Positions 7,665 to 58,074 of a stretch of 64,000 nt of DNA are shown here, piece by piece; positions within the stretch are counted from its first letter, which is position 1, and every line of letters begins with the position of its first letter. Origin of the DNA: Escherichia phage ph0011; the sequence record OP557969.1; one strand, written 5' to 3'. Both the position numbers and the translations under genes were made by a program. The notes below the pieces were generated by a model that saw only the letters and a list, made by a program, of their open reading frames with translations, was not told the origin of the DNA and made no database searches.

Positions 7665-8006
7665 ATGGAATATGATTTTTCTATTTATATGCCTATAATT
7701 AGTTCACAAGATGTGTATTGTAATCTTAATAAAGGTGATTACGAACACAAAATGGATCAGTACATTAAATTTAATGGTGCGTACTTTAGCTTCATTGATT
7801 ATCAGGCCAAAGGATCAGTTGTAGAAAATATGAAAGACTATACAACAGTACATGGTGAGGCTGAAATATTTCAAGAGTCATTAATATTCGACAAGAAGTA
7901 CTTGTGTACTCTAGAGGAAGTAATTGAACTCCAACAGAAGATGAAAGAATATAGAAGAATCTACACAGAGACTGGTTCCAAAGATAGGTATCGTTTTAAG
8001 CTATGA
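7665..8006 (+). CDS. FQ-family paralog (short form)
   Basis: ATG at 7665 directly after upstream TAA; core GEAEIFQESLIFDKKYLCTLEE. Confidence 0.7.
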   Translation: MEYDFSIYMPIISSQDVYCNLNKGDYEHKMDQYIKFNGAYFSFIDYQAKGSVVENMKDYTTVHGEAEIFQESLIFDKKYLCTLEEVIELQQKMKEYRRIYTETGSKDRYRFKL

Positions 8007-28310: not shown

Positions 28311-29159
28311 ATGAAACTTTATCTAATCGTTGACTACAGTAAGGGTTATTATGACTACGCAGAAGAATCTGAAGGGTATTGCTCGTCTACTAATGTCAAT
28401 GTACGCACCAGTAGTACACATGAGCATGAATCTATTACAAATCTAAAAGATTTTATTGCATATCGAGCATTTGAAAAGAATTTCTGTCGTAGTAGATATT
28501 CGAAGTTTGAGTACCCGTTAATTGATGTTCCTGATGAATTGATGTTCCAGTTAATGCTCACTGGAGTACAAGATTATGATTACATTGCGTACAATCACAT
28601 TACTAAGAAAATTTATATCGGTACGTCAACGCATGACATTTCTATGTATGCATCATGCCCCGATGATCGAATGAATGATAGAAAATCATACTATAGTGGT
28701 TCAGTTGGTTCAAATGTTCCATCAAATAAAAATTTATTCTTTGAGTACGAGTTTGATAATCATCGAGGGAAAACAGACCGAGAAGATTATTGTACTGAAA
28801 TTAATAGTTCAAATGGATATGAAGAAGTGAAAGAAGCAATAATGCCATATATCCTAGACAAGTACTACAAAGATTTTCAGTACTGTAGTAATTTTCTAAT
28901 CCGAAATTCTATCAAAATCGGTCGTCAAAGCACTGCATTCTCTAAGTACTACAATGATTCCCCTGTTGCTGAAAATGAATACTGTAATGTTCTCTCAATC
29001 CCACGTGAAGATATGGTATTCATGTTCACATCTTTCATTGAAGATGATGAGTTGTATGTAAAAAACAAGCACAGGTTCATGCTAAGTAATATTGAGGTTA
29101 TGAGAAGCTTAAGTGCAGATATATTAACGAATTTCACTGAAAAAACAGAATACAACTGA
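28311..29159 (+). CDS. FQ-family-related protein (atypical, long C-terminal extension)
   Basis: ATG after GGAG; motif PDELMFQLMLTG near residue 75 of 282. Confidence 0.6.
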   Translation: MKLYLIVDYSKGYYDYAEESEGYCSSTNVNVRTSSTHEHESITNLKDFIAYRAFEKNFCRSRYSKFEYPLIDVPDELMFQLMLTGVQDYDYIAYNHITKKIYIGTSTHDISMYASCPDDRMNDRKSYYSGSVGSNVPSNKNLFFEYEFDNHRGKTDREDYCTEINSSNGYEEVKEAIMPYILDKYYKDFQYCSNFLIRNSIKIGRQSTAFSKYYNDSPVAENEYCNVLSIPREDMVFMFTSFIEDDELYVKNKHRFMLSNIEVMRSLSADILTNFTEKTEYN

Positions 29160-29189
29160 GACATACCATAAGTTTATGATATAATATAA

Positions 29190-29220
29190 GGTGACAGCAG
29201 AATATGTTGTCACCTTTTTT
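29190..29220 (+). terminator. rho-independent terminator
   Basis: GGTGACA-11 nt loop-TGTCACC hairpin followed by TTTTTT, 30 nt after the stop at 29159. Confidence 0.6.
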
Positions 29221-29762
29221 AATCCTGAAAGGTTCCTTTAAAGGAAACGTTTAAAACCTAATCCACTCGAAAATGTAGAGGGTAGATGAGTAGTCCTTTC
29301 AGTACGAACAGCAGATGAAACCCGTTAGATGATGGCATAGTTTGAACCACTCACGGCAATGCGGCTGTATAAAGAACTCCAATAGGATAAAGAGAGTTCC
29401 TCGATAGACATATAAGGATCGCACCTTACCAATTATCTAAGGGAGATTTCATGAGAAATATGCGGTCGGAATTATACAATATAGTTGCGTCCAAATTTTG
29501 TGAAATCAAATACAAGTACTGGTCATATGGTATTTGTATTATGTGTTGGGATGTTTAAGACCAACGACCGTTGCTACAAGAACCGCGATAGAGAGAAACC
29601 GAGCAACCCGCTTTCGTCTCGTATGAGAATTCGTGATATGAACTATGTGAAGACCACCAGCGTCAAATTTTTTTGTTCTTTCCCCTGCGGGGGGATGAAA
29701 TATGCTCAAACAAACCTCGTCAATATTAATTAAAAGAATTATTATTACTTGTAGAATTTGAC
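29221..29762 (+). other. ORF-free island of about 540 bp; candidate structured non-coding RNA or regulatory region
   Basis: No convincing ORF on either strand in an otherwise densely coding genome; appears locally G+C-richer by eye with several short inverted repeats (e.g. CCCCTGCGGGG at about 29682-29692). Confidence 0.3.
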
Positions 29763-30386
29763 ATGCGTAGCATGGATAATTCTACTGGTGTTGATGTAAT
29801 CAACATCACGTATATATTCATTGAAGTTTCCACAGGAATAATGATGGCATTTATTAAAAAACAAAAAACATTTACCTATAAGACTTTGGATTTTATTGAT
29901 TGCGAAAATCAAACACAGAATGAAGATAACTTTACTGGATTTGTTGTTATTAAAGAAAAAGGATGTATTTCGTATATCAAGGAATTACAAAATGGAATTG
30001 AAGTAACGTCGGTTAAATTACTTCCTACACAAAAGCCAACAATATCCAAAGCACAATATGGTAATTATTTTGAGGAAAGATATAGTAATAATTTAATAAG
30101 TGTTAAGGCTCATATTATAAAAGGAGAACTAGAAGGAGAATATAGAAAATTCAATCCACAAGGAAAATGTGTTTGGGTTAAATACTTCAATTCAGGAAAT
30201 GATGTAACATCTGAAATAATTGAGTTTTTAGGTTTAACATGTACCCCTGAAACTCTTCATGACTACAAATTTAATGCTGAAGAAGAGTTTAATCTGATGA
30301 TGCGTTATGGAACACATTTTAAATTTTTATATGAATATAACATTGACAGTGGTGTTTTTGATAGGATAGTACAAAACTGTCTTTAA
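29763..30386 (+). CDS. hypothetical protein with MORN/YwqK-like repeat segment (start uncertain)
   Basis: ATG ORF; segment GEYRKFNPQGKCVWVKYFNSG resembles MORN-type repeats; alternative ATG further downstream. Confidence 0.45.
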   Translation: MRSMDNSTGVDVINITYIFIEVSTGIMMAFIKKQKTFTYKTLDFIDCENQTQNEDNFTGFVVIKEKGCISYIKELQNGIEVTSVKLLPTQKPTISKAQYGNYFEERYSNNLISVKAHIIKGELEGEYRKFNPQGKCVWVKYFNSGNDVTSEIIEFLGLTCTPETLHDYKFNAEEEFNLMMRYGTHFKFLYEYNIDSGVFDRIVQNCL

Positions 30387-30402: not shown

Positions 30403-30927
30403 ATGTCGAAGAAGGATACTTCGAAGAAAAAGCAATCAGTACATTTCAGTACTGGAAAAGATAACTGGACAACTCCAAAGGATTTCTTTGAAGAGTTGGA
30501 TGAGTTATGGGGATTCACACTTGATGCTGCTTGTGTTGATGAGACGGCATTATGTGAAAATTATTTTACACCAAATGACGATTCTCTATCACAGGATTGG
30601 GGAAAGAATATAGTTTGGTTAAACCCGCCATATAGTGATTTGAAAACATGGTTATCTAAAGCAGTAGATGCGTATAATAAAGGAGCAACAGTCGTAATTC
30701 TAGTTCCATCACGAACTGATACAATAGCCTTCCATGAATATGCTGCAAAAGTTTGTGATTGTATTTGTTTCATTAAAGGAAGATTACGATTTGGTATCCC
30801 AGAAGAACCAGAGAAGAAGACAGATTCAGCACCATTTCCTTCATGTCTTATAGTTCTTGATAATTACTTAACTACTGCTAAAATAAATTATCTTAAATCT
30901 ATTGGGTTGGTAATGAAGAAACTATGA
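30403..30927 (+). CDS. dam: DNA N6-adenine methyltransferase, phage Dam family
   Basis: ATG after AAGGA; motifs WTTPKDFFEEL and catalytic NPPY (VWLNPPYS) typical of phage N6-adenine methyltransferases. Confidence 0.88.
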   Translation: MSKKDTSKKKQSVHFSTGKDNWTTPKDFFEELDELWGFTLDAACVDETALCENYFTPNDDSLSQDWGKNIVWLNPPYSDLKTWLSKAVDAYNKGATVVILVPSRTDTIAFHEYAAKVCDCICFIKGRLRFGIPEEPEKKTDSAPFPSCLIVLDNYLTTAKINYLKSIGLVMKKL

Positions 30928-31457
30928 AAGAAACATGTATTTTATCATTTATGAGATGTAACCCTGTACATAATGGACATGGTTTAGTTTTTGAAAAGGC
31001 CAAAACATTACAAGAACAGTACAATGCTGATTTGAAAATATATCTAAGTACCAGTACTGACAATATAAAAAACCAACTCCCACCTGAACTAAAAATGTAT
31101 TATACAGAGGGATTTTATCCTTCAGTACAAGAGAACATCTACACCGAAGACAATCTATTTGATATAATGAGAGAACTGGATGGAAAATACTTAGATGTAT
31201 TTTTCATATGTGGTTCAGACCGTATTGAATCTTTTCAGAAAACTCTTGACAGTTACAATGGGAAATTATATAATTTTTGTAATATAAAAGCAATTCAAGC
31301 AGGTATTGATCGCCAATCAAGTCAATATAGTTCAACACAAATGCGTAACTTCGCAAAAAATGAAGATTTTGATAATTTTCGAGAATTTTTACCAGGTAAT
31401 GATGAGGACTTAAAAATTCAATTATTTGAAGATGTTATCAAATACATGAGGAAATAA
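30924..31457 (+). CDS. HxGH-motif nucleotidyltransferase (NMN/NaMN adenylyltransferase-like)
   Basis: ATGA overlap with dam; N-terminal CNPVHNGHG (HxGH) and C-terminal SSTQMRN (ISSTxxR-like) motifs. Confidence 0.7.
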   Translation: MKETCILSFMRCNPVHNGHGLVFEKAKTLQEQYNADLKIYLSTSTDNIKNQLPPELKMYYTEGFYPSVQENIYTEDNLFDIMRELDGKYLDVFFICGSDRIESFQKTLDSYNGKLYNFCNIKAIQAGIDRQSSQYSSTQMRNFAKNEDFDNFREFLPGNDEDLKIQLFEDVIKYMRK

Positions 31458-31459
31458 CT

Positions 31460-31753
31460 ATGACAGTACTGTTCAAAACTAATCCAGTTCTTTGGGAACA
31501 AAATGAGCAAGCAGGATTCCGTTCTATCCATGTTGAATACAAGGGTAACACGGTAGTTGCAATTATTGCTAATAAAACTTTAGGAAAATGGACTGCACAA
31601 GTTGTTCCTATGGGATATTCTTATACATCTGATGAGGTAGAATTTTTGGCTGATCTTTATCGTCAAATGCCTTTTATCATTAATGTTCTAGAACAAAGTG
31701 ATACATTAACACATGAAGATGTAATCAACTTTCTTGGAAACTTACATGTGTGA
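31460..31753 (+). CDS. hypothetical protein
   Basis: ATG after GAGGA; 97 aa. Confidence 0.6.
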   Translation: MTVLFKTNPVLWEQNEQAGFRSIHVEYKGNTVVAIIANKTLGKWTAQVVPMGYSYTSDEVEFLADLYRQMPFIINVLEQSDTLTHEDVINFLGNLHV

Positions 31754-32033
31754 TGTGATTAATCTTACTGGATATTTTTTACAAGAATCAATGATTAAAT
31801 TTAGTGAACACTTTCCAGTACTGGATGGTATAGAAATGTGGCATGTTAAGCCACTTTTCAACTCTTTCAGTAAAGAGCACAAAATGTTATTGACAGAAGC
31901 GAGTAAATCTAATAACATATGTGAAATCAAGATTGGTGTGAATGTCTATAAAGGGTTGGTAATCTTTTTTGACAATAACAGCAATTATTTTTATATTGTT
32001 AAGGAGCATTACGTTGACAAATACAAATACTAA
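31746..32033 (+). CDS. hypothetical protein
   Basis: In-frame ATG at 31746; 95 aa. Confidence 0.45.
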   Translation: MCDVINLTGYFLQESMIKFSEHFPVLDGIEMWHVKPLFNSFSKEHKMLLTEASKSNNICEIKIGVNVYKGLVIFFDNNSNYFYIVKEHYVDKYKY

Positions 32034-32625
32034 TACATACTTTAGATATCTTCGCCTTGGTCTTTCCCTACGTCCTATTCGTGGTAAGTGTGATTCGCTT
32101 ACAGATCTTGATTATGCATATGCATTACATCATGAAGGTGTACAGTATGTATTAGGTGATTATGGCGAATTTGAAGAAACAAATGACAGTACTGCTATTA
32201 ATGCAGGTGTTGAAAATCTTAACAACATTGCTAATAGTTCTCGTCATGATATTGTGTTACAAATCCAGAACTTTATTGAACAACACACAGGTAAACGTGT
32301 TTGGTGCTATGTAGGCACTGATGCACAAATGTCAATTTCCTTCGGGAACGATGAAGGATATGTTGCACAGCTTATTATGGATTTTGAATCTGAAGAGAAG
32401 TTTTTAGAATTTAAAGAGAAAATCATCCAGTCACTCGTTGATATGGGTATCCCAGAAGATAAAATGCCAGAAGTTCAAAACATCGATGAATTTGTTTTGA
32501 TTCCATCTGATGAAAAGTATGATGCAATGTTTACTGCTCTTAATATTCCCGGAGTTATTGTGGAGTACTTTGATGATGGTGATGATAGTATCTATATCGA
32601 CCTAGATGATGATGATGATGAATAA
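32014..32625 (+). CDS. hypothetical protein with poly-acidic C-terminus, probable TTG start
   Basis: No in-frame ATG; TTG at 32014 is 7 nt after AAGGAG; C-terminal DDGDDSIYIDLDDDDDE. Confidence 0.45.
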   Translation: MTNTNTNTYFRYLRLGLSLRPIRGKCDSLTDLDYAYALHHEGVQYVLGDYGEFEETNDSTAINAGVENLNNIANSSRHDIVLQIQNFIEQHTGKRVWCYVGTDAQMSISFGNDEGYVAQLIMDFESEEKFLEFKEKIIQSLVDMGIPEDKMPEVQNIDEFVLIPSDEKYDAMFTALNIPGVIVEYFDDGDDSIYIDLDDDDDE

Positions 32626-32632
32626 TGCAAAC

Positions 32633-32659
32633 AGCCCGACATAAGTTCGGGCTATTTTT
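32633..32659 (+). terminator. rho-independent terminator
   Basis: AGCCCGA-CATAAGT-TCGGGCT hairpin followed by ATTTTT. Confidence 0.6.
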
Positions 32660-32671
32660 GTAAGGAAAAAT

Positions 32672-32941
32672 ATGAATTACAAAAATATACAATTCACTTA
32701 TATGGAATTATTTAAATTACACCATAAAAACAGAAGTTCTAACACAATTATTAAAAATGCGTTTACCCATAAACTATGGACAAATTACCTAGAAGAATTG
32801 CGTGAATATTTTGTTGATACTGAAATTTTCATTGGTGGTAAAAAACGAAAAATACTTAGAGTCGATAGTTTTGGTGGTCGATTAGTTCTTTCATATAAAC
32901 TTAATAACGATCTATGTTCTGTGAATTTGGTAGATTTATGA
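32672..32941 (+). CDS. small hypothetical protein, family C (N-terminal NIQFTY motif)
   Basis: ATG after AAGGA; MNYKNIQFTY; C-terminal beta-rich segment shared with next four genes. Confidence 0.6.
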   Translation: MNYKNIQFTYMELFKLHHKNRSSNTIIKNAFTHKLWTNYLEELREYFVDTEIFIGGKKRKILRVDSFGGRLVLSYKLNNDLCSVNLVDL

Positions 32942-33198
32942 ATTATAAAGATTTCCAATTTACATTCAAATATATTCGTAGTATAGCAGATAAAAATAAT
33001 AGTGTGTTTTTAGAAGACACATGTTCTGAAATGATTAATACTGTTCGTGATAGGATTAAAGAAAAATTCAGTACTGTTATTATTAACGATGAACATGCAG
33101 AATTTTCAGATATAATAATTCGACGAGATGGTAAAGTTGAGGTTCAGTACTACACTGATTTTGGATTTACCAGTGTTACGTTGGAGATATTCCCTTGA
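32938..33198 (+). CDS. small hypothetical protein, family C
   Basis: ATG at 32938 (ATGA overlap); MNYKDFQFTF. Confidence 0.55.
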   Translation: MNYKDFQFTFKYIRSIADKNNSVFLEDTCSEMINTVRDRIKEKFSTVIINDEHAEFSDIIIRRDGKVEVQYYTDFGFTSVTLEIFP

Positions 33199-33506
33199 GA
33201 TTAAATTTAAATGATATTCAATTTACATATAAAAATATATACGATTTGTATGATATGTATCTTTTTAGTGGGAAGATTGGTAACCATACTGAATCAAAAG
33301 AATCACCATTTATCCAAAATTACTTTGATTACTTAGATGCAGTTGGTGAATATATAAAAAAGAATTACAGTACTTACACTGATGGAGATGATATGTTTGA
33401 ATATTCAGGTATAAAATCTTATCAAGGAATTATCCATGTTGAGTTTCTTGAAAAAACTGATAGGGAGTTTATAGAGATCAAAGTGATGAAGTTAACGGAC
33501 CTGTAA
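33195..33506 (+). CDS. small hypothetical protein, family C, probable TTG start
   Basis: TTG after GGAG; LNDIQFTY motif. Confidence 0.5.
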   Translation: MRLNLNDIQFTYKNIYDLYDMYLFSGKIGNHTESKESPFIQNYFDYLDAVGEYIKKNYSTYTDGDDMFEYSGIKSYQGIIHVEFLEKTDREFIEIKVMKLTDL

Positions 33507-33516
33507 GGATTGACAT

Positions 33517-33807
33517 ATGATTCTTAATGATATACAATTCACATATAGAGTTTTATACATGGAGTACTCTCATACTGATCCTAAAGACTATCACTATTAT
33601 GAAACCTTTCGAACGATATGGATTGAATTTTTAGATGAATTAAAAGCGTATTACGGTAGTGTTCGTATTGTTCGTGATGGTAGAATTTACACTTGTAAAG
33701 ATGTTGTCAGTCATAGTGGTAAGCTACGATTAGAATTATATACAGAAGGACATGGTTGGATTGGTGTAAATTTACTGGATTTAGATAATGAAACACAACT
33801 TAAATGA
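33517..33807 (+). CDS. small hypothetical protein, family C
   Basis: ATG after AAGGA; MILNDIQFTY. Confidence 0.6.
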   Translation: MILNDIQFTYRVLYMEYSHTDPKDYHYYETFRTIWIEFLDELKAYYGSVRIVRDGRIYTCKDVVSHSGKLRLELYTEGHGWIGVNLLDLDNETQLK

Positions 33808-34066
33808 CATACAAGTGTTCTATAGCTTCGTATATGAATCTTATGCATCAGAAGGTTACTATGAAAGTGTGTATTATTTTTTATGGCAACAATACCGTAC
33901 TATAGTACGAGATTTATATATAGGAAAATATATAACATACTGTGATAGTAGAATGATGTGCACAGATGTTCTTAGTTATCATGGTAGGTTGGTATTCCAG
34001 TTCGAAGACAGTGAAGGTAGTATGTCTTTAAATGTAAGAGATTTAAAAGGAGTGCATTTTGAATAA
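33788..34066 (+). CDS. small hypothetical protein, family C
   Basis: ATG ORF; NLNDIQVFY motif. Confidence 0.55.
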   Translation: MKHNLNDIQVFYSFVYESYASEGYYESVYYFLWQQYRTIVRDLYIGKYITYCDSRMMCTDVLSYHGRLVFQFEDSEGSMSLNVRDLKGVHFE

Positions 34067-34259
34067 GTGTCCATATTGTAACAGTACTCAATTAGCTCGT
34101 TTCCGTTTAGATTCAGACTGGGCCACTGGTGCTGGTGATTTCTTTCCTATCAATGATGATGCAGAATATACAGAAGAACAGCACAAAGATTTTGATAAAT
34201 CATGGCGACCTGACATTGAGTGCATTTATTGTCTTAATTGTGAGCGTATACATGACTAA
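34059..34259 (+). CDS. small zinc-ribbon protein (CxxC...CxxC), probable TTG start
   Basis: TTG after AAAGGAG; CPYC ... CIYCLNC cysteine pairs. Confidence 0.45.
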   Translation: MNKCPYCNSTQLARFRLDSDWATGAGDFFPINDDAEYTEEQHKDFDKSWRPDIECIYCLNCERIHD

Positions 34260-34515
34260 AGCTGAACTGATCGTACAAACACTGCGTTTATTGAGGGATT
34301 TAGATATCCCACGCATGGATGTGAAACTTGAAGATATCTACATTGAATCTCTTAGTGAAGATTACACCGATACCGTAATGATGCTGAATGACGTGCTTTA
34401 TCGTATAGATAGCATCAGTCGTCTTGGAAGTACTTTAAAAGTGAATATGGAAAGAGTTGATAAACTTTATGTACATATATATAGTCTACCTATTTCAATA
34501 TTAAACTATAGATGA
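34252..34515 (+). CDS. small hypothetical protein
   Basis: In-frame ATG at 34252; 87 aa. Confidence 0.4.
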   Translation: MTKAELIVQTLRLLRDLDIPRMDVKLEDIYIESLSEDYTDTVMMLNDVLYRIDSISRLGSTLKVNMERVDKLYVHIYSLPISILNYR

Positions 34516-34802
34516 ATATTATATTGATACAAAAAACATATGCGTTATTGATGAAAGAATATACTAATACTTATGATGAAAAGTGCAGTGCAAATCATAA
34601 TATGTATAAATTCATTACCCAAGAGTACAGGGATTATATATATGCTGCGTTAGTGGGTAGATATTTCAGTACTAAAAAACGTAAAGAACTCAAAGTTGTA
34701 GATATTACTTTTTTCTACAACGGGCATATAACAATTCATGGTGTTGAACATAATTCACAAATATATCGTAACTATTCATTCAATGAGGTAACAATTATAT
34801 GA
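34512..34802 (+). CDS. small hypothetical protein
   Basis: ATGA overlap; 96 aa. Confidence 0.5.
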   Translation: MNIILIQKTYALLMKEYTNTYDEKCSANHNMYKFITQEYRDYIYAALVGRYFSTKKRKELKVVDITFFYNGHITIHGVEHNSQIYRNYSFNEVTII

Positions 34803-41461: not shown

Positions 41462-41699
41462 CCTAAAATACTACAACCAAACTGCGGATACCTTTATTAC
41501 CCATTTATATGAAGAATTCAGTCGTATCCGCAATGAATATACTGGTAAATGTATTTTATATAGCTTTTATCATAGTGGTGAAATTGAACTTGCTTACATT
41601 ACTAAAGTGAAGTTTTCAGATGACTATCAATTACTCTTTGAATTAGACAATAGTTTCGTTATTGAAGCTAATTTGATAGTTGATGTACTAGATAAGTGA
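41445..41699 (+). CDS. small hypothetical protein
   Basis: ATG ORF 84 aa. Confidence 0.5.
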   Translation: MSTVNDLKYYNQTADTFITHLYEEFSRIRNEYTGKCILYSFYHSGEIELAYITKVKFSDDYQLLFELDNSFVIEANLIVDVLDK

Positions 41700-41705
41700 G
41701 GACAC

Positions 41706-42020
41706 ATGAATAAAGAACTTGCTCAAAAAGGCATTGATCAGTTAAAGTACATTGAAAAGGAACTAATAGAATCAGTTGAATTAATGGTCGAAGATTTCGT
41801 GTTTGATTTTAAGAAAACATTGATTGGATGTAAAGTCAAATGCTGGGACCATACTATCAGGGAATGGTTTAGTACTATAATCCTTGATGTTAAAGTATCG
41901 CGTACTGCTTTTGGTAACTTAGTAAATGGTGAATGCTTTGTATACACTGAATACAATAACGGAACAAGACACCTTTCAAAAGGATGGCACAGACTCGAAG
42001 ATGTAGAATTCATTGAGTAG
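41706..42020 (+). CDS. small hypothetical protein
   Basis: ATG after GAGGA. Confidence 0.55.
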   Translation: MNKELAQKGIDQLKYIEKELIESVELMVEDFVFDFKKTLIGCKVKCWDHTIREWFSTIILDVKVSRTAFGNLVNGECFVYTEYNNGTRHLSKGWHRLEDVEFIE

Positions 42021-42032
42021 TAAGGAGTAATA

Positions 42033-42965
42033 ATGCCGACTATCACACTAACAGTTGGTTTACCTGGATGTGGTAAAACAACATGGGCAGTACAAGAGAT
42101 TAAAAAAGCCAAATCCAAGACTATCAATATCAACCGTGATGATATTCGTGAATCGATGGCTGGGTCACATGATGCTTACAAATTCAATGATGCTAATGAG
42201 AAGTACGTAACTAATTTACAGTTCAGTGCAGCAAAATTAGCAGCAGAGAATGGTTGGAATATTATTGTATCCGACACAAACCTTAAACCACATTTCCGTG
42301 AACAATGGAAAATGTGGGCTAAAGATAATGGTTATGATTATAAAGAAAAGAACTTCTATGATGATTTTGTACCAAAGGAAGACCGTGGTGCAGATGTTCA
42401 TGAATTCTTTAAGATTAAAGAGTTTGTAAAACTTTGTAAGAAATATAACCTCCAGCGTGAGCGTTCAGTACAAGATAATATCATTGACACAATGGCAGAT
42501 ACGTACTATTATAGTAAGGCATTGCATATTGGTTACTATGGTAATTCTCGTGAAGAAGCGATTATCGTTGATATCGATGGAACTCTTGCTCATAAATGGA
42601 ACCGCAATCCATTTGATGAAAGTACAGTTCTCCAAGATACACCAGACGAAGAAGTTATTTTGTCTGTTATCGCCGAAGCAGTTTTTCATAAACGCAAGAT
42701 TATTGTCATGAGTGGTCGTACTGAAGGGTGTCGTGCTGACACAGAACAGTGGTTGAAGAATTGGGGTGTTCCCTACGATGCATTGTTTATGCGAGGCATT
42801 GATGATAAACGTCCCGATGATGTTGTTAAATTCGACCTGTACATGAAAAATGTGGTTGATCATTACGATGTTAAAAAAGTATATGATGACAGAGCACAAG
42901 TCGTATTCATGTGGCGTAAACTACTTGGATTGAAAGTGATGCAAGTTGCGGAAGGAAATTTTTAG
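42033..42965 (+). CDS. pseT: polynucleotide 5'-kinase/3'-phosphatase (T4 Pnk-like)
   Basis: ATG after AAGGAG; P-loop GLPGCGKTT in kinase domain; phosphatase DxDGT motif (VDIDGTL); collinear with T4 PseT as I recall it. Confidence 0.92.
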   Translation: MPTITLTVGLPGCGKTTWAVQEIKKAKSKTININRDDIRESMAGSHDAYKFNDANEKYVTNLQFSAAKLAAENGWNIIVSDTNLKPHFREQWKMWAKDNGYDYKEKNFYDDFVPKEDRGADVHEFFKIKEFVKLCKKYNLQRERSVQDNIIDTMADTYYYSKALHIGYYGNSREEAIIVDIDGTLAHKWNRNPFDESTVLQDTPDEEVILSVIAEAVFHKRKIIVMSGRTEGCRADTEQWLKNWGVPYDALFMRGIDDKRPDDVVKFDLYMKNVVDHYDVKKVYDDRAQVVFMWRKLLGLKVMQVAEGNF

Positions 42966-55356: not shown

Positions 55357-58029
55357 TTAAGCACTGATTGTTACAGTTGCAGTATCTTTTTTATTACCAT
55401 CCACTGTAGTCACTGTAATGATTACAGAACCTTCTTCTAGAGCAGTTACTAATCCATCATCACTAATAGATACTTTAGTAGGTTTATCTGCACTATAAGT
55501 TACTGATTTGTTAGTTGCTTTAGCTGGTAGAACTTCTGGAACTAGTTGAACTGTTTTAGTTCCTGATAGTGAAAGTTCAGTAGTTTTAGGTGTTAAACTA
55601 ACACTGGATACTGGAACTGGAATATTAACGATTACTGATGTTTGACCAGTAACATCACTACCATCAGCGGCAGTAGCGATAATATTTGCAGTACCATTAG
55701 TTAGTGCAGTTACGATACCAGTATTAGCATCTACTTTAGCAATTTCTGGAGCACTGGATGACCAAATTACATTTTTATTGGTTGCATCACTTGGGGTAAT
55801 TGCAGCAGCCATTTGTTTAGTTGCATTCAATGTAGTCAAAGTTTGATCTTTAGGAGTTACATCAATTGCAGTTACTGGCACTGGAATATTAACAGTAATA
55901 ACACCTTGACCTGTTTTACCACTTCCATCAGCAGCAGTTGCGATAATGTTTGCAGAACCGTTAGTTAACGCAGTTACAACACCAGTACTAGCATCTACTT
56001 TCGCTACAGCAGGTTTACTGGAAGACCATGTTACAGATTTATTTGTTGCGTTAGTTGGAAGAACTTCAGCAGCCATTGCTTGAGTTGCGTTAACAGCAGT
56101 CAATGTTTTAGTTGCTGGAGTAACATTAATAGATGCGACTGGAACTGGAATTGCTACAGTTACCGCACATTTTGCAGTTTTTGCTCCATCAGCAGTTGTT
56201 ACTGTGATATCAGCAGTGCCATTTGCTACAGCAGTGATTAAACCAGTTGGACTAACAGTTGCCACTCCATCAGCAGAAGTACTATAAGTTACTGCTTTGT
56301 TGGTAGCATTAGGTGGTAGTACAGTTGGTGTTAGTTGTTGAGTATCACCGACTGAAGTTAATTTAGCACTTGTTGGAGATACTGATACACTTGCAACAGG
56401 AACTGGAATGTTAACAGTTACCACGCAAACTTTAGAAAATCCACCATCAGATGTGGTTGCTGTAATATTTGCAGTACCGTTTGCAACAGCAGTGATTAAA
56501 CCAGTTGGACTTACCGTTGCGACACCCTCAGCAGAAGTAGTGTATGAAATATCTTTACGACGAGCGTTATCTGGAATAACAGATGCAGTTAGTTGTTGAG
56601 TAGCACCTACAGAAGTTAGGGTTGCTGTCAACGGAGTCATATTAATTCCAGTTACTGGGATCGTTACATCAATCACTGATTCAGCAGTTTTAGCACCATC
56701 ATCAGTGGTAACAGTAATAGTTGTAGTACCGTTATCAACCGAAGTTACTAGACCAGTATTACTAACTTTTGCTACGTCTGGATATGAAGAAACATATGAA
56801 ACTGCTTTATTGGATGCAGTTGCAGGAGCAACGGTTGTTTCTAATTGTTTAGTATCACCTAATGTTGAGAATGTATAAGTACTAGGAGTCATTGTGACAC
56901 CAGATACTGGTGTTTTCACTGTGATTGTAGTAGTGTCCGTTTTAGCACCATCTTCGGTTGTAGCTGTAATCACCACTGTGCCGTTAGCCACACCAGTTAC
57001 TAGACCAGAAGTAGGGTTAACAGTTGCTATATCAGGTGTTGCTGAAGACCACGTGACGTTTTTATTAGTTGCATCATCAGGAGATATTGTAGCAGTTAAT
57101 TGTTGAGTACTGCCAACGTTAATTGATGCAGTTTTAGGAGAAACAACAACACCACTAACTGGAGTTGTTACAGTAACAGTACATTTTGAAACAAATGAAC
57201 CATCAACTGTAGTTGCAATTACATCAGTACTGCCATCTGCAATACCAGTTACCATACCAGTTGGACTTACAGTTGCGAAGCGTGGTATACTGGATGACCA
57301 AATAACACTTTTATCACTTGCATCATCGGGTGATACGGTAGCTGTTAGTTGATGAGTTTTACCAACACCAAGAGATAGAGTTGAAGGAGAAACAACAACA
57401 CCACTAACTGGAGTTGTTACAGTAAATGCACAAACATCGGTGAAACCACCATCATGAGTAGTAACTGTTACATTTGCATTACCATTAGCACGGGCAATTG
57501 CTAAACCAGTTTGAGCATCAACTTCAACTATTGTTGGAGCAGAGGAACTATAACTTACTGTTGGATCATTTGCATAATCTGGATTAATTGTAGCTGATAG
57601 TTGTTGTGTGCTACCAACTTTAAGTGCTACTACTTTGGGTGAAATAATAACACCATTAACTGGTGTAGTATAATCACGTTTAACCACACGACCATTGTTC
57701 AATTTAATAATACGACCCATATAAAGAGTAGCATATCCCTTACTAATCCCATCATCTACATAAATCATAAATGAATTGTCTTGAACCATATTAATTGCGT
57801 CTACTGGCTTAACAGTATTTGGAATGTCGATACCACGGGTATCATACCAACACATGGAAACTTTGTAATATATATCACCATTATCATTGATGAGATCATA
57901 CACGTTACTGGAACGTTGACGGTTAATATATAAAGTTTCGGTTAATACCTTACCATCGATTTTAGCGACAGAAACTTTAATACCACCAATACCAAATGGC
58001 AATTTACCTTCACTAGATATTGCTTTCAT
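55357..58029 (-). CDS. large virion-surface-type protein with about nine to ten tandem Ig-like (Big_2-type) domains
   Basis: 890-aa ORF, the only strong minus-strand gene; AAGGAAA RBS; repeated 85-90-aa units TPVSGV..SP...L.VG.TQQLTATV.P.DATNK.V.WSS..P..A.V...G.VT.VA.GT..ITATT.DG; ~120-aa non-repeat N-terminal domain. Confidence 0.85.
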   Translation of the reverse strand: MKAISSEGKLPFGIGGIKVSVAKIDGKVLTETLYINRQRSSNVYDLINDNGDIYYKVSMCWYDTRGIDIPNTVKPVDAINMVQDNSFMIYVDDGISKGYATLYMGRIIKLNNGRVVKRDYTTPVNGVIISPKVVALKVGSTQQLSATINPDYANDPTVSYSSSAPTIVEVDAQTGLAIARANGNANVTVTTHDGGFTDVCAFTVTTPVSGVVVSPSTLSLGVGKTHQLTATVSPDDASDKSVIWSSSIPRFATVSPTGMVTGIADGSTDVIATTVDGSFVSKCTVTVTTPVSGVVVSPKTASINVGSTQQLTATISPDDATNKNVTWSSATPDIATVNPTSGLVTGVANGTVVITATTEDGAKTDTTTITVKTPVSGVTMTPSTYTFSTLGDTKQLETTVAPATASNKAVSYVSSYPDVAKVSNTGLVTSVDNGTTTITVTTDDGAKTAESVIDVTIPVTGINMTPLTATLTSVGATQQLTASVIPDNARRKDISYTTSAEGVATVSPTGLITAVANGTANITATTSDGGFSKVCVVTVNIPVPVASVSVSPTSAKLTSVGDTQQLTPTVLPPNATNKAVTYSTSADGVATVSPTGLITAVANGTADITVTTADGAKTAKCAVTVAIPVPVASINVTPATKTLTAVNATQAMAAEVLPTNATNKSVTWSSSKPAVAKVDASTGVVTALTNGSANIIATAADGSGKTGQGVITVNIPVPVTAIDVTPKDQTLTTLNATKQMAAAITPSDATNKNVIWSSSAPEIAKVDANTGIVTALTNGTANIIATAADGSDVTGQTSVIVNIPVPVSSVSLTPKTTELSLSGTKTVQLVPEVLPAKATNKSVTYSADKPTKVSISDDGLVTALEEGSVIITVTTVDGNKKDTATVTISA
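55360..57670 (-). repeat. in-frame tandem repeats of about 255-270 bp encoding Ig-like domains
   Basis: Recurrent nucleotide and peptide units visible across the gene body. Confidence 0.65.
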
Positions 58030-58066: not shown

Positions 58067-58074
58067 TATTTATA
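58067..58074 (-). promoter_or_regulatory. T4-type late promoter (TATAAATA)
   Basis: TATAAATA on the minus strand 38 nt upstream of the ATG at 58029. Confidence 0.45.

What the first reader, a model, noticed from the sequence alone, without database searches (positions are those of the whole stretch)
32014..32625. Protein with poly-acidic C-terminal tail and a likely TTG start
The frame has no ATG for >100 codons; the only well-placed initiator is TTG at 32014, 7 nt after AAGGAG. The product ends DDGDDSIYIDLDDDDDE. Highly acidic phage proteins sometimes act as DNA mimics that block restriction or other DNA-binding defence proteins.
Basis: inference. Interest (0 to 1): 0.45.

Follow-up and report, generated by a model that had tools for sequence, protein, structure and literature searches.

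The report
Acidic-tailed core protein of Rak2-like phages
This is a real, TTG-initiated, very acidic 203-residue protein that all Rak2-like giant phages carry at the end of a conserved DNA-methylase operon, but nothing yet shows that it is a DNA mimic and its function remains untested.

Summary
ORF 32014-32625 (+) starts at TTG, 7 nt after AAGGAG. The first in-frame ATG is codon 106. The product ends DDGDDSIYIDLDDDDDE (net charge -29, pI 4.08).

The start is well supported. Eight phage lineages begin the protein at the same place (ATG in five, GTG in one). Codons 1-46 show 11 synonymous and 1 non-synonymous change against phage 121Q.

The window comes from a 121Q/PBECO4-like (Asteriusvirus-like) jumbo phage. 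The protein is the orthologue of 121Q gp421 (98.5% identical) and belongs to phrog_15575, function unknown. It was found in 69 phage records, all from Rak2-like genera. It is the last cistron of a conserved operon that includes a Dam methylase and ends at a terminator.

No sequence or fold link to Ocr, ArdA or SSB was found. The DNA-mimic idea is plausible but untested. Core-gene status and strong purifying selection argue against a typical anti-restriction gene. Interest is modest.

In passing, a conserved 510-nt structured RNA lies upstream of the operon (29220-29728). Related phage genomes hold 4-5 copies, and it matches no Rfam family.

The parts
29156..29185 (+). Promoter of the unit: -35-like CTGAGACA and an extended -10 TGATATAAT (29177-29185)
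   Evidence: scores it 10/12 with TG. TGnTATAAT is conserved at the same place in 8 of 9 lineages. GAP32-type phages have GTGAAACG as the -35 element, which is the 'divergent RpoD-like' promoter class of the CBB paper.
29188..29216 (+). 12-bp hairpin plus T-run: terminator of the upstream unit and/or 5' hairpin of the new transcript
   Evidence: The hairpin is kept in relatives through compensatory changes.
29220..29728 (+). Conserved structured leader RNA or ncRNA of about 510 nt, upstream of the operon
   Evidence: It is 95.5% identical to 121Q, against about 84.5% for the 3-kb coding stretch compared (window 31000-34000). It aligns at 70-73% with GAP32, Munch and CBB. The consensus structure has 75 pairs, 43 with compensatory changes, against 20.1 +/- 2.7 in shuffles. 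No Rfam match.
29763..30386 (+). Operon gene 1, phrog_16210, function unknown (true start probably further downstream)
   Evidence: Synteny.
30403..30927 (+). Operon gene 2, DNA N6-adenine methyltransferase (Dam, PF05869)
   Evidence: (E 7e-33).
30924..31457 (+). Operon gene 3, cytidylyltransferase-like nucleotidyltransferase (phrog_3041)
   Evidence: Annotated as such in relatives.
31460..31753 (+). Operon gene 4, 97 aa, phrog_14956, function unknown
31734..32033 (+). Operon gene 5, 99 aa, phrog_38105, function unknown; its last 20 nt overlap the start of the acidic protein gene
32001..32006 (+). Shine-Dalgarno AAGGAG, 7 nt before the TTG
   Evidence: A purine-rich motif sits at the same place in all 8 lineages.
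32014..32625 (+). CDS of the acidic protein (203 aa, TTG start, TAA stop); orthologue of 121Q gp421, RaK2 ORF451, GAP32_071 and CBB gp075; phrog_15575
32566..32622 (+). Codons 185-203: the poly-acidic tail YFDDGDDSIYIDLDDDDDE, predicted disordered
   Evidence: (pLDDT about 54-58 for residues 191-203). One search shows the tail is specific to this clade.
32633..32653 (+). Intrinsic terminator (7-bp GC-rich stem plus T-run) that ends the operon
   Evidence: The sequence is conserved in 121Q and annotated as a terminator in phage G17.

Best explanation
Shown. This is a genuine protein-coding gene translated from TTG 32014. It is the orthologue of the 'hypothetical protein' 121Q gp421 and belongs to phage family phrog_15575. 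It was found in 69 phage records, all from Rak2-like genera. It is the last, tightly packed cistron of a conserved operon: unknown gene, Dam methylase, cytidylyltransferase-like gene, one or two small genes, then this gene. The operon is preceded by a conserved promoter-like motif (TGnTATAAT) and a 510-nt structured leader, and it ends at an intrinsic terminator. Transcription itself was not measured. The product was not detected in phAPEC6 virions. It consists of a compact alpha/beta domain (residues about 7-184) with no solved structural relative, followed by a disordered tail of about 19 residues, more than half of them Asp or Glu.

Inferred (about one chance in three). The protein acts inside the infected cell as a stoichiometric binder. 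The folded domain would give specificity. The acidified surface and the poly-acidic tail would occupy the basic, nucleic-acid-binding surface of a conserved partner, either a host or a phage DNA- or RNA-binding protein. It would thus act as a polyanionic decoy or regulator rather than as an enzyme. The partner cannot be named from sequence. The stated confidence refers to this inferred mechanism; confidence in the gene, its start and its family is about 0.95.
For: Gene and start:
- 45 of 49 nucleotide differences from 121Q fall at third codon positions. There are 43 synonymous and 2 non-synonymous codon changes, and 11 to 1 within codons 1-46.
- Eight lineages start 5-8 residues before the conserved T-Y/F-x-R/K-Y-L-R-L/M-G motif, with ATG in five, GTG in one and TTG in two. 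All have a purine-rich SD, and an in-frame stop lies 3-11 codons upstream in six of the eight.

Family and distribution:
- phrog_15575, E 4e-93, full length.
- 22 database homologues.
- 69 phage records from Rak2-like genera.

Operon:
- Same gene order in 121Q, G17, RaK2, GAP32, Munch, CBB, Serratia BF, Yen9-04, XbC2 and Hallingskeid.
- Gene junctions range from -20 to +16 nt.
- Terminator and promoter.

Not detected in virions:
- No gp38x-40x entry appears in the phAPEC6 virion mass-spectrometry table.

Structure:
- pLDDT 91.6, pTM 0.84; the tail has pLDDT about 55.

Decoy idea:
- In the Rak2-like clade the core carries -0.10 charge per residue, and the tail averages 16 residues at 57% D/E.
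- In remote homologues the core is neutral (-0.014 per residue) and the protein ends right after the last strand.
- The tail sequence drifts but its composition persists down to 26-29% identity.
- About 15 core positions are conserved as acidic; about 10 of them are less than one-third acidic in remote homologues.
- The protein is 98.5% identical to 121Q, against 55-93% for all but one of the 14 nearby genes compared, which implies a conserved partner.
- The gene is co-operonic with a genome-protecting Dam methylase.
Against: There is no experimental datum for any family member, and no paper found mentions it.
- No similarity to any known DNA mimic by sequence or by fold.
- Acidity is common among this phage's small proteins: 13% have pI below 4.5.
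- Y45, H78, F110, G111 and F173 are nearly invariant across the whole family, including the neutral members. This suggests a conserved ligand-binding, catalytic or structural site unrelated to charge.
- The tail could simply aid solubility.
Confidence: 0.35

Rival explanations
1. Classical anti-restriction DNA mimic. The protein imitates B-form DNA and blocks Type I R-M, BREX or similar DNA-binding defence enzymes, as T7 Ocr or ArdA do.
For: pI 4.08, net charge -29 and 21% D+E in a 23-kDa protein. Ocr also ends in an acidic tail and has 34 D/E in 116 residues (PMC3439906). The gene shares an operon with Dam, another anti-restriction device. TATAAATA, the T4 late-promoter motif that the CBB paper's predicted late motif resembles, is absent from the + strand of the whole window. 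That suggests non-late expression.
Confidence: 0.12
2. Accessory or regulatory subunit of the phage's own nucleic-acid machinery. The partner could be the co-operonic Dam or nucleotidyltransferase, or the T4-like replisome. The acidic tail would serve as a docking or autoinhibitory element, as in T4 gp32 and T7 gp2.5.
For: Core-gene status, fixed synteny and very strong purifying selection. There is a 20-nt overlap and tight packing with the upstream cistrons, typical of co-translated complex subunits. A basic N-terminal patch (R11, R14, R20, R23) is also specific to this clade and could pair with the tail. The tail mixes acidic with aliphatic or aromatic residues (IYIDL, EWLDL, FFGSY), as the gp32 tail does (own knowledge).
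Against: There is no OB fold and no SSB-family match. The other operon proteins are not basic (pI 4.9-6.0), so no obvious electrostatic partner lies next door. Nothing links the protein physically to Dam or to the replisome.
Confidence: 0.2
3. The conserved alpha/beta domain is an enzyme or small-molecule binder, and its function is shared with the neutral remote homologues. The acidity and tail would be secondary adaptations for solubility or half-life, with no decoy role.
For: Y45, H78, F110, G111 and F173 are nearly invariant across all 38 aligned family members, including the neutral ones. Polar positions Q44, D49, R77 and Q105 are invariant in the close clade. Two neighbouring genes encode enzymes.
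Against: No match to any enzyme family or fold. A tail kept at 10-24 residues across lineages only 26-29% identical points to selection on the tail itself.
Confidence: 0.15
4. Mis-called gene. Either the frame is not translated, or translation starts elsewhere: at the internal TTG used in the phAPEC6 annotation (158 aa), or at the upstream TTGs 31969 or 31996 used by some automatic gene calls.
For: Database entries disagree. phAPEC6 gp390c starts 46 codons further in. P0001, P0002, P0004, P0005 and P0008 carry N-terminal extensions.
Against: Invariant residues G16, L17, R20, P21, R23 and G24 lie upstream of the phAPEC6 start. Codons 1-46 show 11 synonymous and 1 non-synonymous change. Relatives have ATG plus SD at the equivalent position and an in-frame stop just upstream. 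The upstream TTGs have no SD.
Confidence: 0.02

Closest known systems
121Q gp421 (YP_009102008), RaK2 ORF451, GAP32_071, CBB gp075: PHROG family phrog_15575, function unknown
   Same: Full-length homology (E 4e-93 to the PHROG profile) and 98.5% identity to 121Q gp421. Same TTG start, same operon position and same terminator.
   Different: Nothing of substance differs. The window's copy has one Asp fewer in the tail and two substitutions. The family has never been characterised.
T7 Ocr (gp0.3), the archetypal DNA-mimic anti-restriction protein
   Same: Small, very acidic phage protein (Ocr has 34 D/E in 116 residues) that ends in a poly-acidic tail. Presumed non-late expression (PMC3439906).
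   Different: No sequence or fold similarity. Ocr mimics DNA with its folded helical dimer, and truncations of its tail still block restriction. Here the family's fold is neutral outside this clade and the tail is the most conspicuous acidic element. Ocr-type genes are usually regarded as accessory (own knowledge), whereas this one is core.
ArdA (conjugative-element DNA mimic)
   Same: Comparable size (own knowledge of ArdA).
   Different: No match to any Pfam or PHROG family other than phrog_15575, and no strong structural neighbour. ArdA is an elongated three-domain dimer (PMC2731889, title and abstract). This protein is predicted to be a single compact alpha/beta domain with a tail.
Acidic C-terminal tails of phage and bacterial single-stranded DNA-binding proteins (T4 gp32, T7 gp2.5, E. 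coli SSB)
   Same: A disordered C-terminal tail that mixes Asp/Glu with a few hydrophobic residues on a protein of about 200-300 residues. In SSBs such tails dock partner proteins and compete with DNA for the protein's own basic surface (own knowledge).
   Different: No OB fold is predicted and no SSB family matches. The tail ends in DDDDDE rather than in a hydrophobic C-terminal residue. phAPEC6 annotates a separate SSB, gp204c.

Membership tests
phrog_15575 (uncharacterised phage protein family; 121Q gp421 orthologues) | Full-length, significant match to the family profile | tested here: met
   E 4.1e-93, residues 1-200 on profile positions 1-193 of 193. All 40 aligned relatives hit the same PHROG.
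phrog_15575 (uncharacterised phage protein family; 121Q gp421 orthologues) | Orthologous genomic position: downstream of Dam and a cytidylyltransferase-like gene in Rak2-like jumbo phages | tested here: met
   Same gene order in 10 annotated relatives from at least 4 named genera.
Ocr family (T7 gp0.3-like DNA mimics) | Sequence homology to Ocr (the Pfam and PHROG libraries include anti-restriction families; own knowledge) | tested here: not met
   No Pfam family at E up to 1. The only PHROG at E up to 1 is phrog_15575.
Ocr family (T7 gp0.3-like DNA mimics) | All-helical dimer whose surface carboxylates superimpose on DNA phosphates | tested here: not met
ArdA family | Sequence or fold homology to ArdA | tested here: not met
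DNA-mimic proteins in the operational sense | Small, pI below 5, high Asp+Glu content | tested here: met
   23.2 kDa, pI 4.08, 42 D/E in 203 residues. The criterion is weakly specific: 13% of the window's ORFs have pI below 4.5.
DNA-mimic proteins in the operational sense | Binds the DNA-binding site of a target protein and competes with DNA | not testable with these tools
   Needs pull-downs, EMSA competition or complex prediction. None is available here.
Single-stranded DNA-binding proteins with acidic tails (gp32, gp2.5, SSB) | OB-fold DNA-binding core | tested here: not met

The most novel reading that the evidence does not exclude
The protein founds a structurally orphan class of polyanionic decoy. 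A neutral phage alpha/beta fold was converted, in the ancestor of Rak2-like jumbo phages, into a highly acidic protein with a nucleic-acid-like disordered tail. On this reading it neutralises a conserved host DNA- or RNA-binding protein (a nucleoid protein, RNA polymerase or a defence nuclease). It would be expressed before the late phase from a Dam 'genome-protection' operon that is itself led by a new 510-nt multi-copy structured RNA.
Probability: 0.15. Interest if true: 0.65.

Novelty: new member of a known kind. Interest (0 to 1): 0.3.

Why it matters
About 83% of phAPEC6's predicted proteins have no known function. A protein that is present in every matched member of the group, nearly invariant within a genus, structurally orphan and conspicuously polyanionic is a sensible first target for finding out how these phages handle host DNA-binding proteins. 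If it is a decoy, it would add a new fold, and a tail-based mode, to the short list of nucleic-acid mimics. On the practical side, the comparative evidence fixes the start codon and corrects inconsistent database annotations: the phAPEC6 entry is truncated and several automatic gene calls are over-extended. The unannotated multi-copy structured RNA at the head of the operon may be the more valuable lead for RNA biologists.

Tried and rejected
Searches that gave nothing:
- Pfam, NCBIfam and PDB sequence searches, with the single protein and with profiles, gave no usable hit.
- Foldseek against BFVD found only orthologues: RaK2, CBB and phAPEC6.
- The afdb50 library was not available.

Remote homologues:
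- An exhaustive profile search found 43 hits. They are neutral and tail-less, many carry an N-terminal extension of 60-80 residues, and none has a Pfam domain.
- Their contexts (L005-L007, L014) were uninformative.
- A scan of 185,579 species genomes found one MAG locus only, so the family is essentially viral.
- The alignment A3 was too divergent for that scan.

Literature:
- No paper mentions gp421, gp390, gp538 or CBB_75, or assigns a temporal class to this operon.

Ideas considered and rejected:
- A near-consensus sigma-70 promoter at 31969-31997 just before the gene. Its -10 element would start transcription inside the SD. The region lies inside the upstream gene (31734-32033), so its conservation in 121Q may reflect coding constraint. 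Promoter-like hits are not enriched: 34 found against 37 expected.
- Production as a frameshift fusion with the upstream ORF. This is unnecessary, because relatives have their own ATG and SD.
- The antisense 45-aa ORF 32555-32692 with a His run. This is simply the reverse complement of the GAT repeat.

- A surface-charge map of the model, because coordinates are not exposed.

Full report
OBSERVATION. AAGGAG lies at 32001-32006. TTG lies at 32014-32016, after a 7-nt spacer. The frame runs to TAA at 32623-32625. In-frame start candidates are TTG 31969, TTG 31996 and TTG 32014, then nothing until GTG 32254 and the first ATG at 32329, which is codon 106. The product has 203 residues (23.2 kDa), 24 Asp, 18 Glu, 7 Lys and 6 Arg. 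Its net charge is -29 and its pI 4.08. It ends EYFDDGDDSIYIDLDDDDDE. Among about 126 + strand ORFs in the window it has the largest net charge, and it is the only one with a poly-acidic C-terminus. From the window's amino-acid composition, such a tail is expected 0.0016 times among the C-termini. The first 20 residues are basic (+3), and the last 23 carry -12.

START CODON. The window is about 85% identical in DNA to Asteriusvirus jumbo phages such as 121Q, PBECO4, G17 and Sharanji. In 121Q, G17 and Sharanji the orthologue is annotated from the same TTG. phAPEC6 annotators chose an internal TTG, giving 158 aa. Several automatic gene calls extend upstream.

Three lines of evidence settle the matter.
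- The window and 121Q differ at 49 nucleotides in this gene, 45 of them at third codon positions. Within codons 1-46 there are 11 synonymous changes and 1 non-synonymous change.
- Residues G16, L17, R20, P21, R23 and G24 are invariant in 21 homologues, and they lie upstream of the phAPEC6 start.
- In eight lineages the protein starts 5-8 residues before the conserved T-Y/F-x-R/K-Y-L-R-L/M-G motif. The start is ATG in five (two metagenomic relatives, RaK2, GAP32, CBB), GTG in Munch and TTG in the window and 121Q. All have a purine-rich SD, and six of the eight have an in-frame stop 3-11 codons upstream.

The start overlaps the last 20 nt of the preceding gene, which fits translational coupling.

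IDENTITY AND DISTRIBUTION. The protein matches only phrog_15575 (function unknown), at E 4e-93 over its full length. No Pfam or NCBIfam family matches. A search of 5.8 billion proteins returned 22 homologues down to 45% identity. tblastn of the phage collection found it in 69 records. These are E. coli, Salmonella, Klebsiella, Erwinia, Yersinia, Serratia, Cronobacter, Pectobacterium and Xanthomonas phages, among them Asteriusvirus, Alcyoneusvirus, Mimasvirus, Eneladusvirus and Munch-like phages. It is always annotated 'hypothetical protein'. It is 98.5% identical to 121Q gp421, whereas all but one of the 14 nearby genes compared are 55-93% identical. So it is a core gene under unusually strong purifying selection.

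An exhaustive profile search of 1.84 billion cluster representatives found 43 relatives. A scan of 185,579 species genomes found one MAG locus. A viral scan found one more, in a 424-kb contig. The family is essentially viral.

OPERON AND EXPRESSION CONTEXT. The gene order is conserved in 121Q, G17, RaK2, GAP32, Munch, CBB, Serratia BF, Yen9-04, XbC2 and Hallingskeid (family assignments). The order is:
- an unknown gene (phrog_16210);
- Dam methylase (PF05869);
- a cytidylyltransferase-like gene (phrog_3041);
- one or two small unknown genes;
- this gene.

In the window the junctions range from -20 to +16 nt. An intrinsic terminator follows 8 nt after the stop, at 32633-32653; phage G17 annotates the equivalent site as a terminator. 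Upstream of the first gene lies a gap of about 600 nt that is conserved in every relative.

Nothing in the literature assigns a temporal class. However, TATAAATA, the T4 late-promoter motif that the CBB paper's predicted late motif resembles, occurs only twice in the 64-kb window, against 15.1 expected. Both copies are on the - strand. The long + strand gene array is therefore probably not late. No gp38x-40x entry appears in the phAPEC6 virion mass-spectrometry table, so the orthologue gp390c was not detected in virions.

ANATOMY OF THE PROTEIN. With the 21-sequence alignment, AlphaFold2 gave pLDDT 76.9. With a 38-sequence alignment that includes remote relatives it gave pLDDT 91.6 and pTM 0.84. 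The model has an N-terminal helix (7-14), a beta hairpin (36-47), three helices (52-92), a three-strand meander (97-124), a long helix (127-143), and then strand-helix-strand (160-183). The tail beyond residue 190 has pLDDT of about 55.

In the alignment of the wider family, remote members end directly after the last strand and are about neutral: -0.014 charge per core residue, and a post-strand tail averaging 6 residues at 14% D/E. The 14 Rak2-like members carry -0.10 per core residue and a tail of 10-24 residues at 57% D/E. About 15 core positions are conserved as acidic in the clade, and about 10 of them are less than one-third acidic in the remote group. A basic N-terminal patch (R11, R14, R20, R23) is also specific to the clade. 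Across the whole family only Y45, H78, F110, G111 and F173 are nearly invariant. The tail sequence drifts (IYIDLDDDDDE, EWLDLDGDEDD, FFGSYDDEEDDEDD, YYDEDEDED) but its composition persists. In 121Q the Asp run is encoded by mixed GAT and GAC codons and is one residue longer, so it is maintained at the protein level.

COMPARISON WITH KNOWN KINDS. The protein meets the generic description of a DNA mimic: small, pI about 4, and about 21% acidic residues. It fails every test of membership in a known mimic family.
- It has no sequence match.

In T7 Ocr, which also ends in an acidic tail, mimicry resides in the folded dimer. Truncations of 7 or 17 C-terminal residues still inhibit EcoKI (PMC3439906). 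So a tail by itself is not diagnostic. Acidic tails with embedded hydrophobic residues are also typical of gp32, gp2.5 and SSB (own knowledge), but no OB fold is predicted here.

MECHANISM. The shown steps are these: the gene, its start, its family, its operon position, its absence from the phAPEC6 virion proteome, a high-confidence model of a folded domain with a low-confidence tail, and the clade-specific gain of negative charge.

The inferred step is as follows. Selection for negative charge on both the core and the tail, together with near-invariance within a genus, suggests a stoichiometric binder. Its polyanionic surface and tail would occupy a basic nucleic-acid-binding surface on a conserved partner, with the folded domain giving specificity. 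I give this about 0.35.

The rivals are:
- a classical anti-restriction mimic (0.12), disfavoured by core-gene status and slow evolution;
- an accessory subunit of the phage's own Dam, nucleotidyltransferase or replisome, with a gp32-like tail (0.20);
- an enzyme or ligand binder with an incidental tail (0.15), suggested by the family-wide Y45 and H78;
- a mis-called gene or start (0.02).

NOVELTY AND VERDICT. The sequence is already in GenBank as a hypothetical protein with the same start. What is added here is the comparative proof of the TTG start, the operon definition, a confident orphan-fold model, and the demonstration that the acidity and tail are derived traits. I class it as a new member of a known, uncharacterised kind, and the interest is modest (0.3). 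The DNA-mimic reading remains a reasonable but untested hypothesis.

SIDE FINDING. The 'intergenic' stretch 29160-29762 is 95.5% identical to 121Q, although the 3-kb coding stretch compared (window 31000-34000) is about 84.5% identical. It still aligns at 70-73% over 430-500 nt with GAP32, Munch and CBB, whose orthologues of the acidic protein are only 28-45% identical.
- It holds no convincing ORF and matches no Rfam family even at E up to 10.
- RNAalifold on 8 orthologues and 3 paralogues predicts 75 pairs, 43 of them with compensatory changes.
- Counting on that structure gives 94.7% of cells paired, against 81.8 +/- 0.8 in shuffles. It gives 43 double-change pairs, against 20.1 +/- 2.7 (0 of 500 shuffles reach the observed value) and 10-13 in slid controls.
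- The element occurs 4-5 times per genome: 70 records hold 280 places.
- In phage EC22.5-2 the four copies lie at 89.9, 143.4, 223.2 and 333.3 kb, all on the + strand. Each is preceded by TGnTATAAT, and three of the four are followed closely by a + strand gene array (after the 223-kb copy the first + strand ORF starts about 650 nt downstream).
- A motif scan of IMG/VR found 37 sites, most of them in contigs of 350-405 kb, with up to 5 per contig.
- Upstream of the window's copy lie a conserved extended -10 promoter (29177-29185) and a hairpin plus T-run (29188-29216).

This looks like an undescribed multi-copy leader RNA or ncRNA family of Rak2-like phages. Its role was not determined. It could be a cis-acting antiterminator or leader, a stable ncRNA, or an origin transcript.

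Noticed in passing
window 29220-29728 (+): A conserved structured RNA of about 510 nt with no Rfam match lies upstream of the Dam operon. It is 95.5% identical to 121Q, against about 84.5% for the 3-kb coding stretch compared (window 31000-34000). It still aligns with GAP32, Munch and CBB at 70-73%. The predicted structure has 75 pairs, 43 with compensatory changes (20.1 +/- 2.7 in shuffles; 0 of 500 reach it). Related phage genomes hold 4-5 copies on one strand; in EC22.5-2 they lie at 89.9, 143.4, 223.2 and 333.3 kb. Each copy follows a TGnTATAAT promoter, and three of the four are followed closely by a + strand gene array. Some records annotate tiny spurious ORFs over it (Yen9-04 g047 and g048, Hallingskeid CDS0625-0629)..
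   Followed up: partly
window 29156-29216 (+): A conserved phage promoter, with a -35-like CTGAGACA (GTGAAACG in GAP32-type phages) and an extended -10 TGATATAAT, is followed at once by a 12-bp hairpin plus T-run that is kept through compensatory changes. It may be a terminator of the upstream unit overlapping the promoter of the next unit, or a 5'-terminal hairpin or attenuator..
   Followed up: partly
whole window; 58067-58074 (-) and 7682-7689 (-): TATAAATA, the T4 late-promoter motif that the CBB paper's predicted late motif resembles, occurs only twice, against 15.1 expected, and never on the + strand. One copy sits about 38 nt upstream of the start of the only long - strand ORF (55357-58029, 890 aa). 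This suggests that ORF is late and the + strand array is not.
   Followed up: no
window 32672-34066 and 34512-34802 (+): A tandem array of paralogous genes of about 90 aa. The proteins share an N-terminal N-D-I-Q-F-T-Y motif and a C-terminal V-x-L-x-D-L motif. They diverge fast (55-75% identity to 121Q) and belong to phrog_32291 and phrog_21004, function unknown.
   Followed up: partly
window 34059-34259 (+): A 66-aa protein with two CxxC pairs (zinc-ribbon-like; phrog_22354). It is 98.5% identical to 121Q, as conserved as the acidic protein, while surrounded by fast-evolving genes.
   Followed up: no
L008 1653-2129 (phAPEC6 gp390c); proteins P0001, P0002, P0004, P0005, P0008: Database annotations of this gene disagree on the start. 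phAPEC6 truncates 46 conserved codons, and several metagenomic gene calls add 5-24 spurious N-terminal residues.
   Followed up: yes
window 31246-31274 (+) and 31969-31997 (+): A perfect sigma-70 consensus (TTGACA-17-TATAAT) lies inside the nucleotidyltransferase gene, and an 11/12 match lies just before the acidic protein's SD. Promoter-like hits are not enriched overall (34 found, 37 expected), so these may be chance matches or internal promoters.
   Followed up: no
L021 about 41669-42450 (EC22.5-2 genome 91669-92451): This Asteriusvirus-like phage (record marked UNVERIFIED_ORG) carries an extra 261-aa ORF between Dam and the nucleotidyltransferase gene. The ORF is absent from the window and from 121Q, so it may be a mobile insertion. 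It was not examined.
   Followed up: no
window 32555-32692 (-): A 45-aa antisense ORF with a His run (HHHHH...HHHH). It is only the reverse complement of the GAT/GAA repeat that encodes the acidic tail, and it spans the terminator. It is not a gene.
   Followed up: yes
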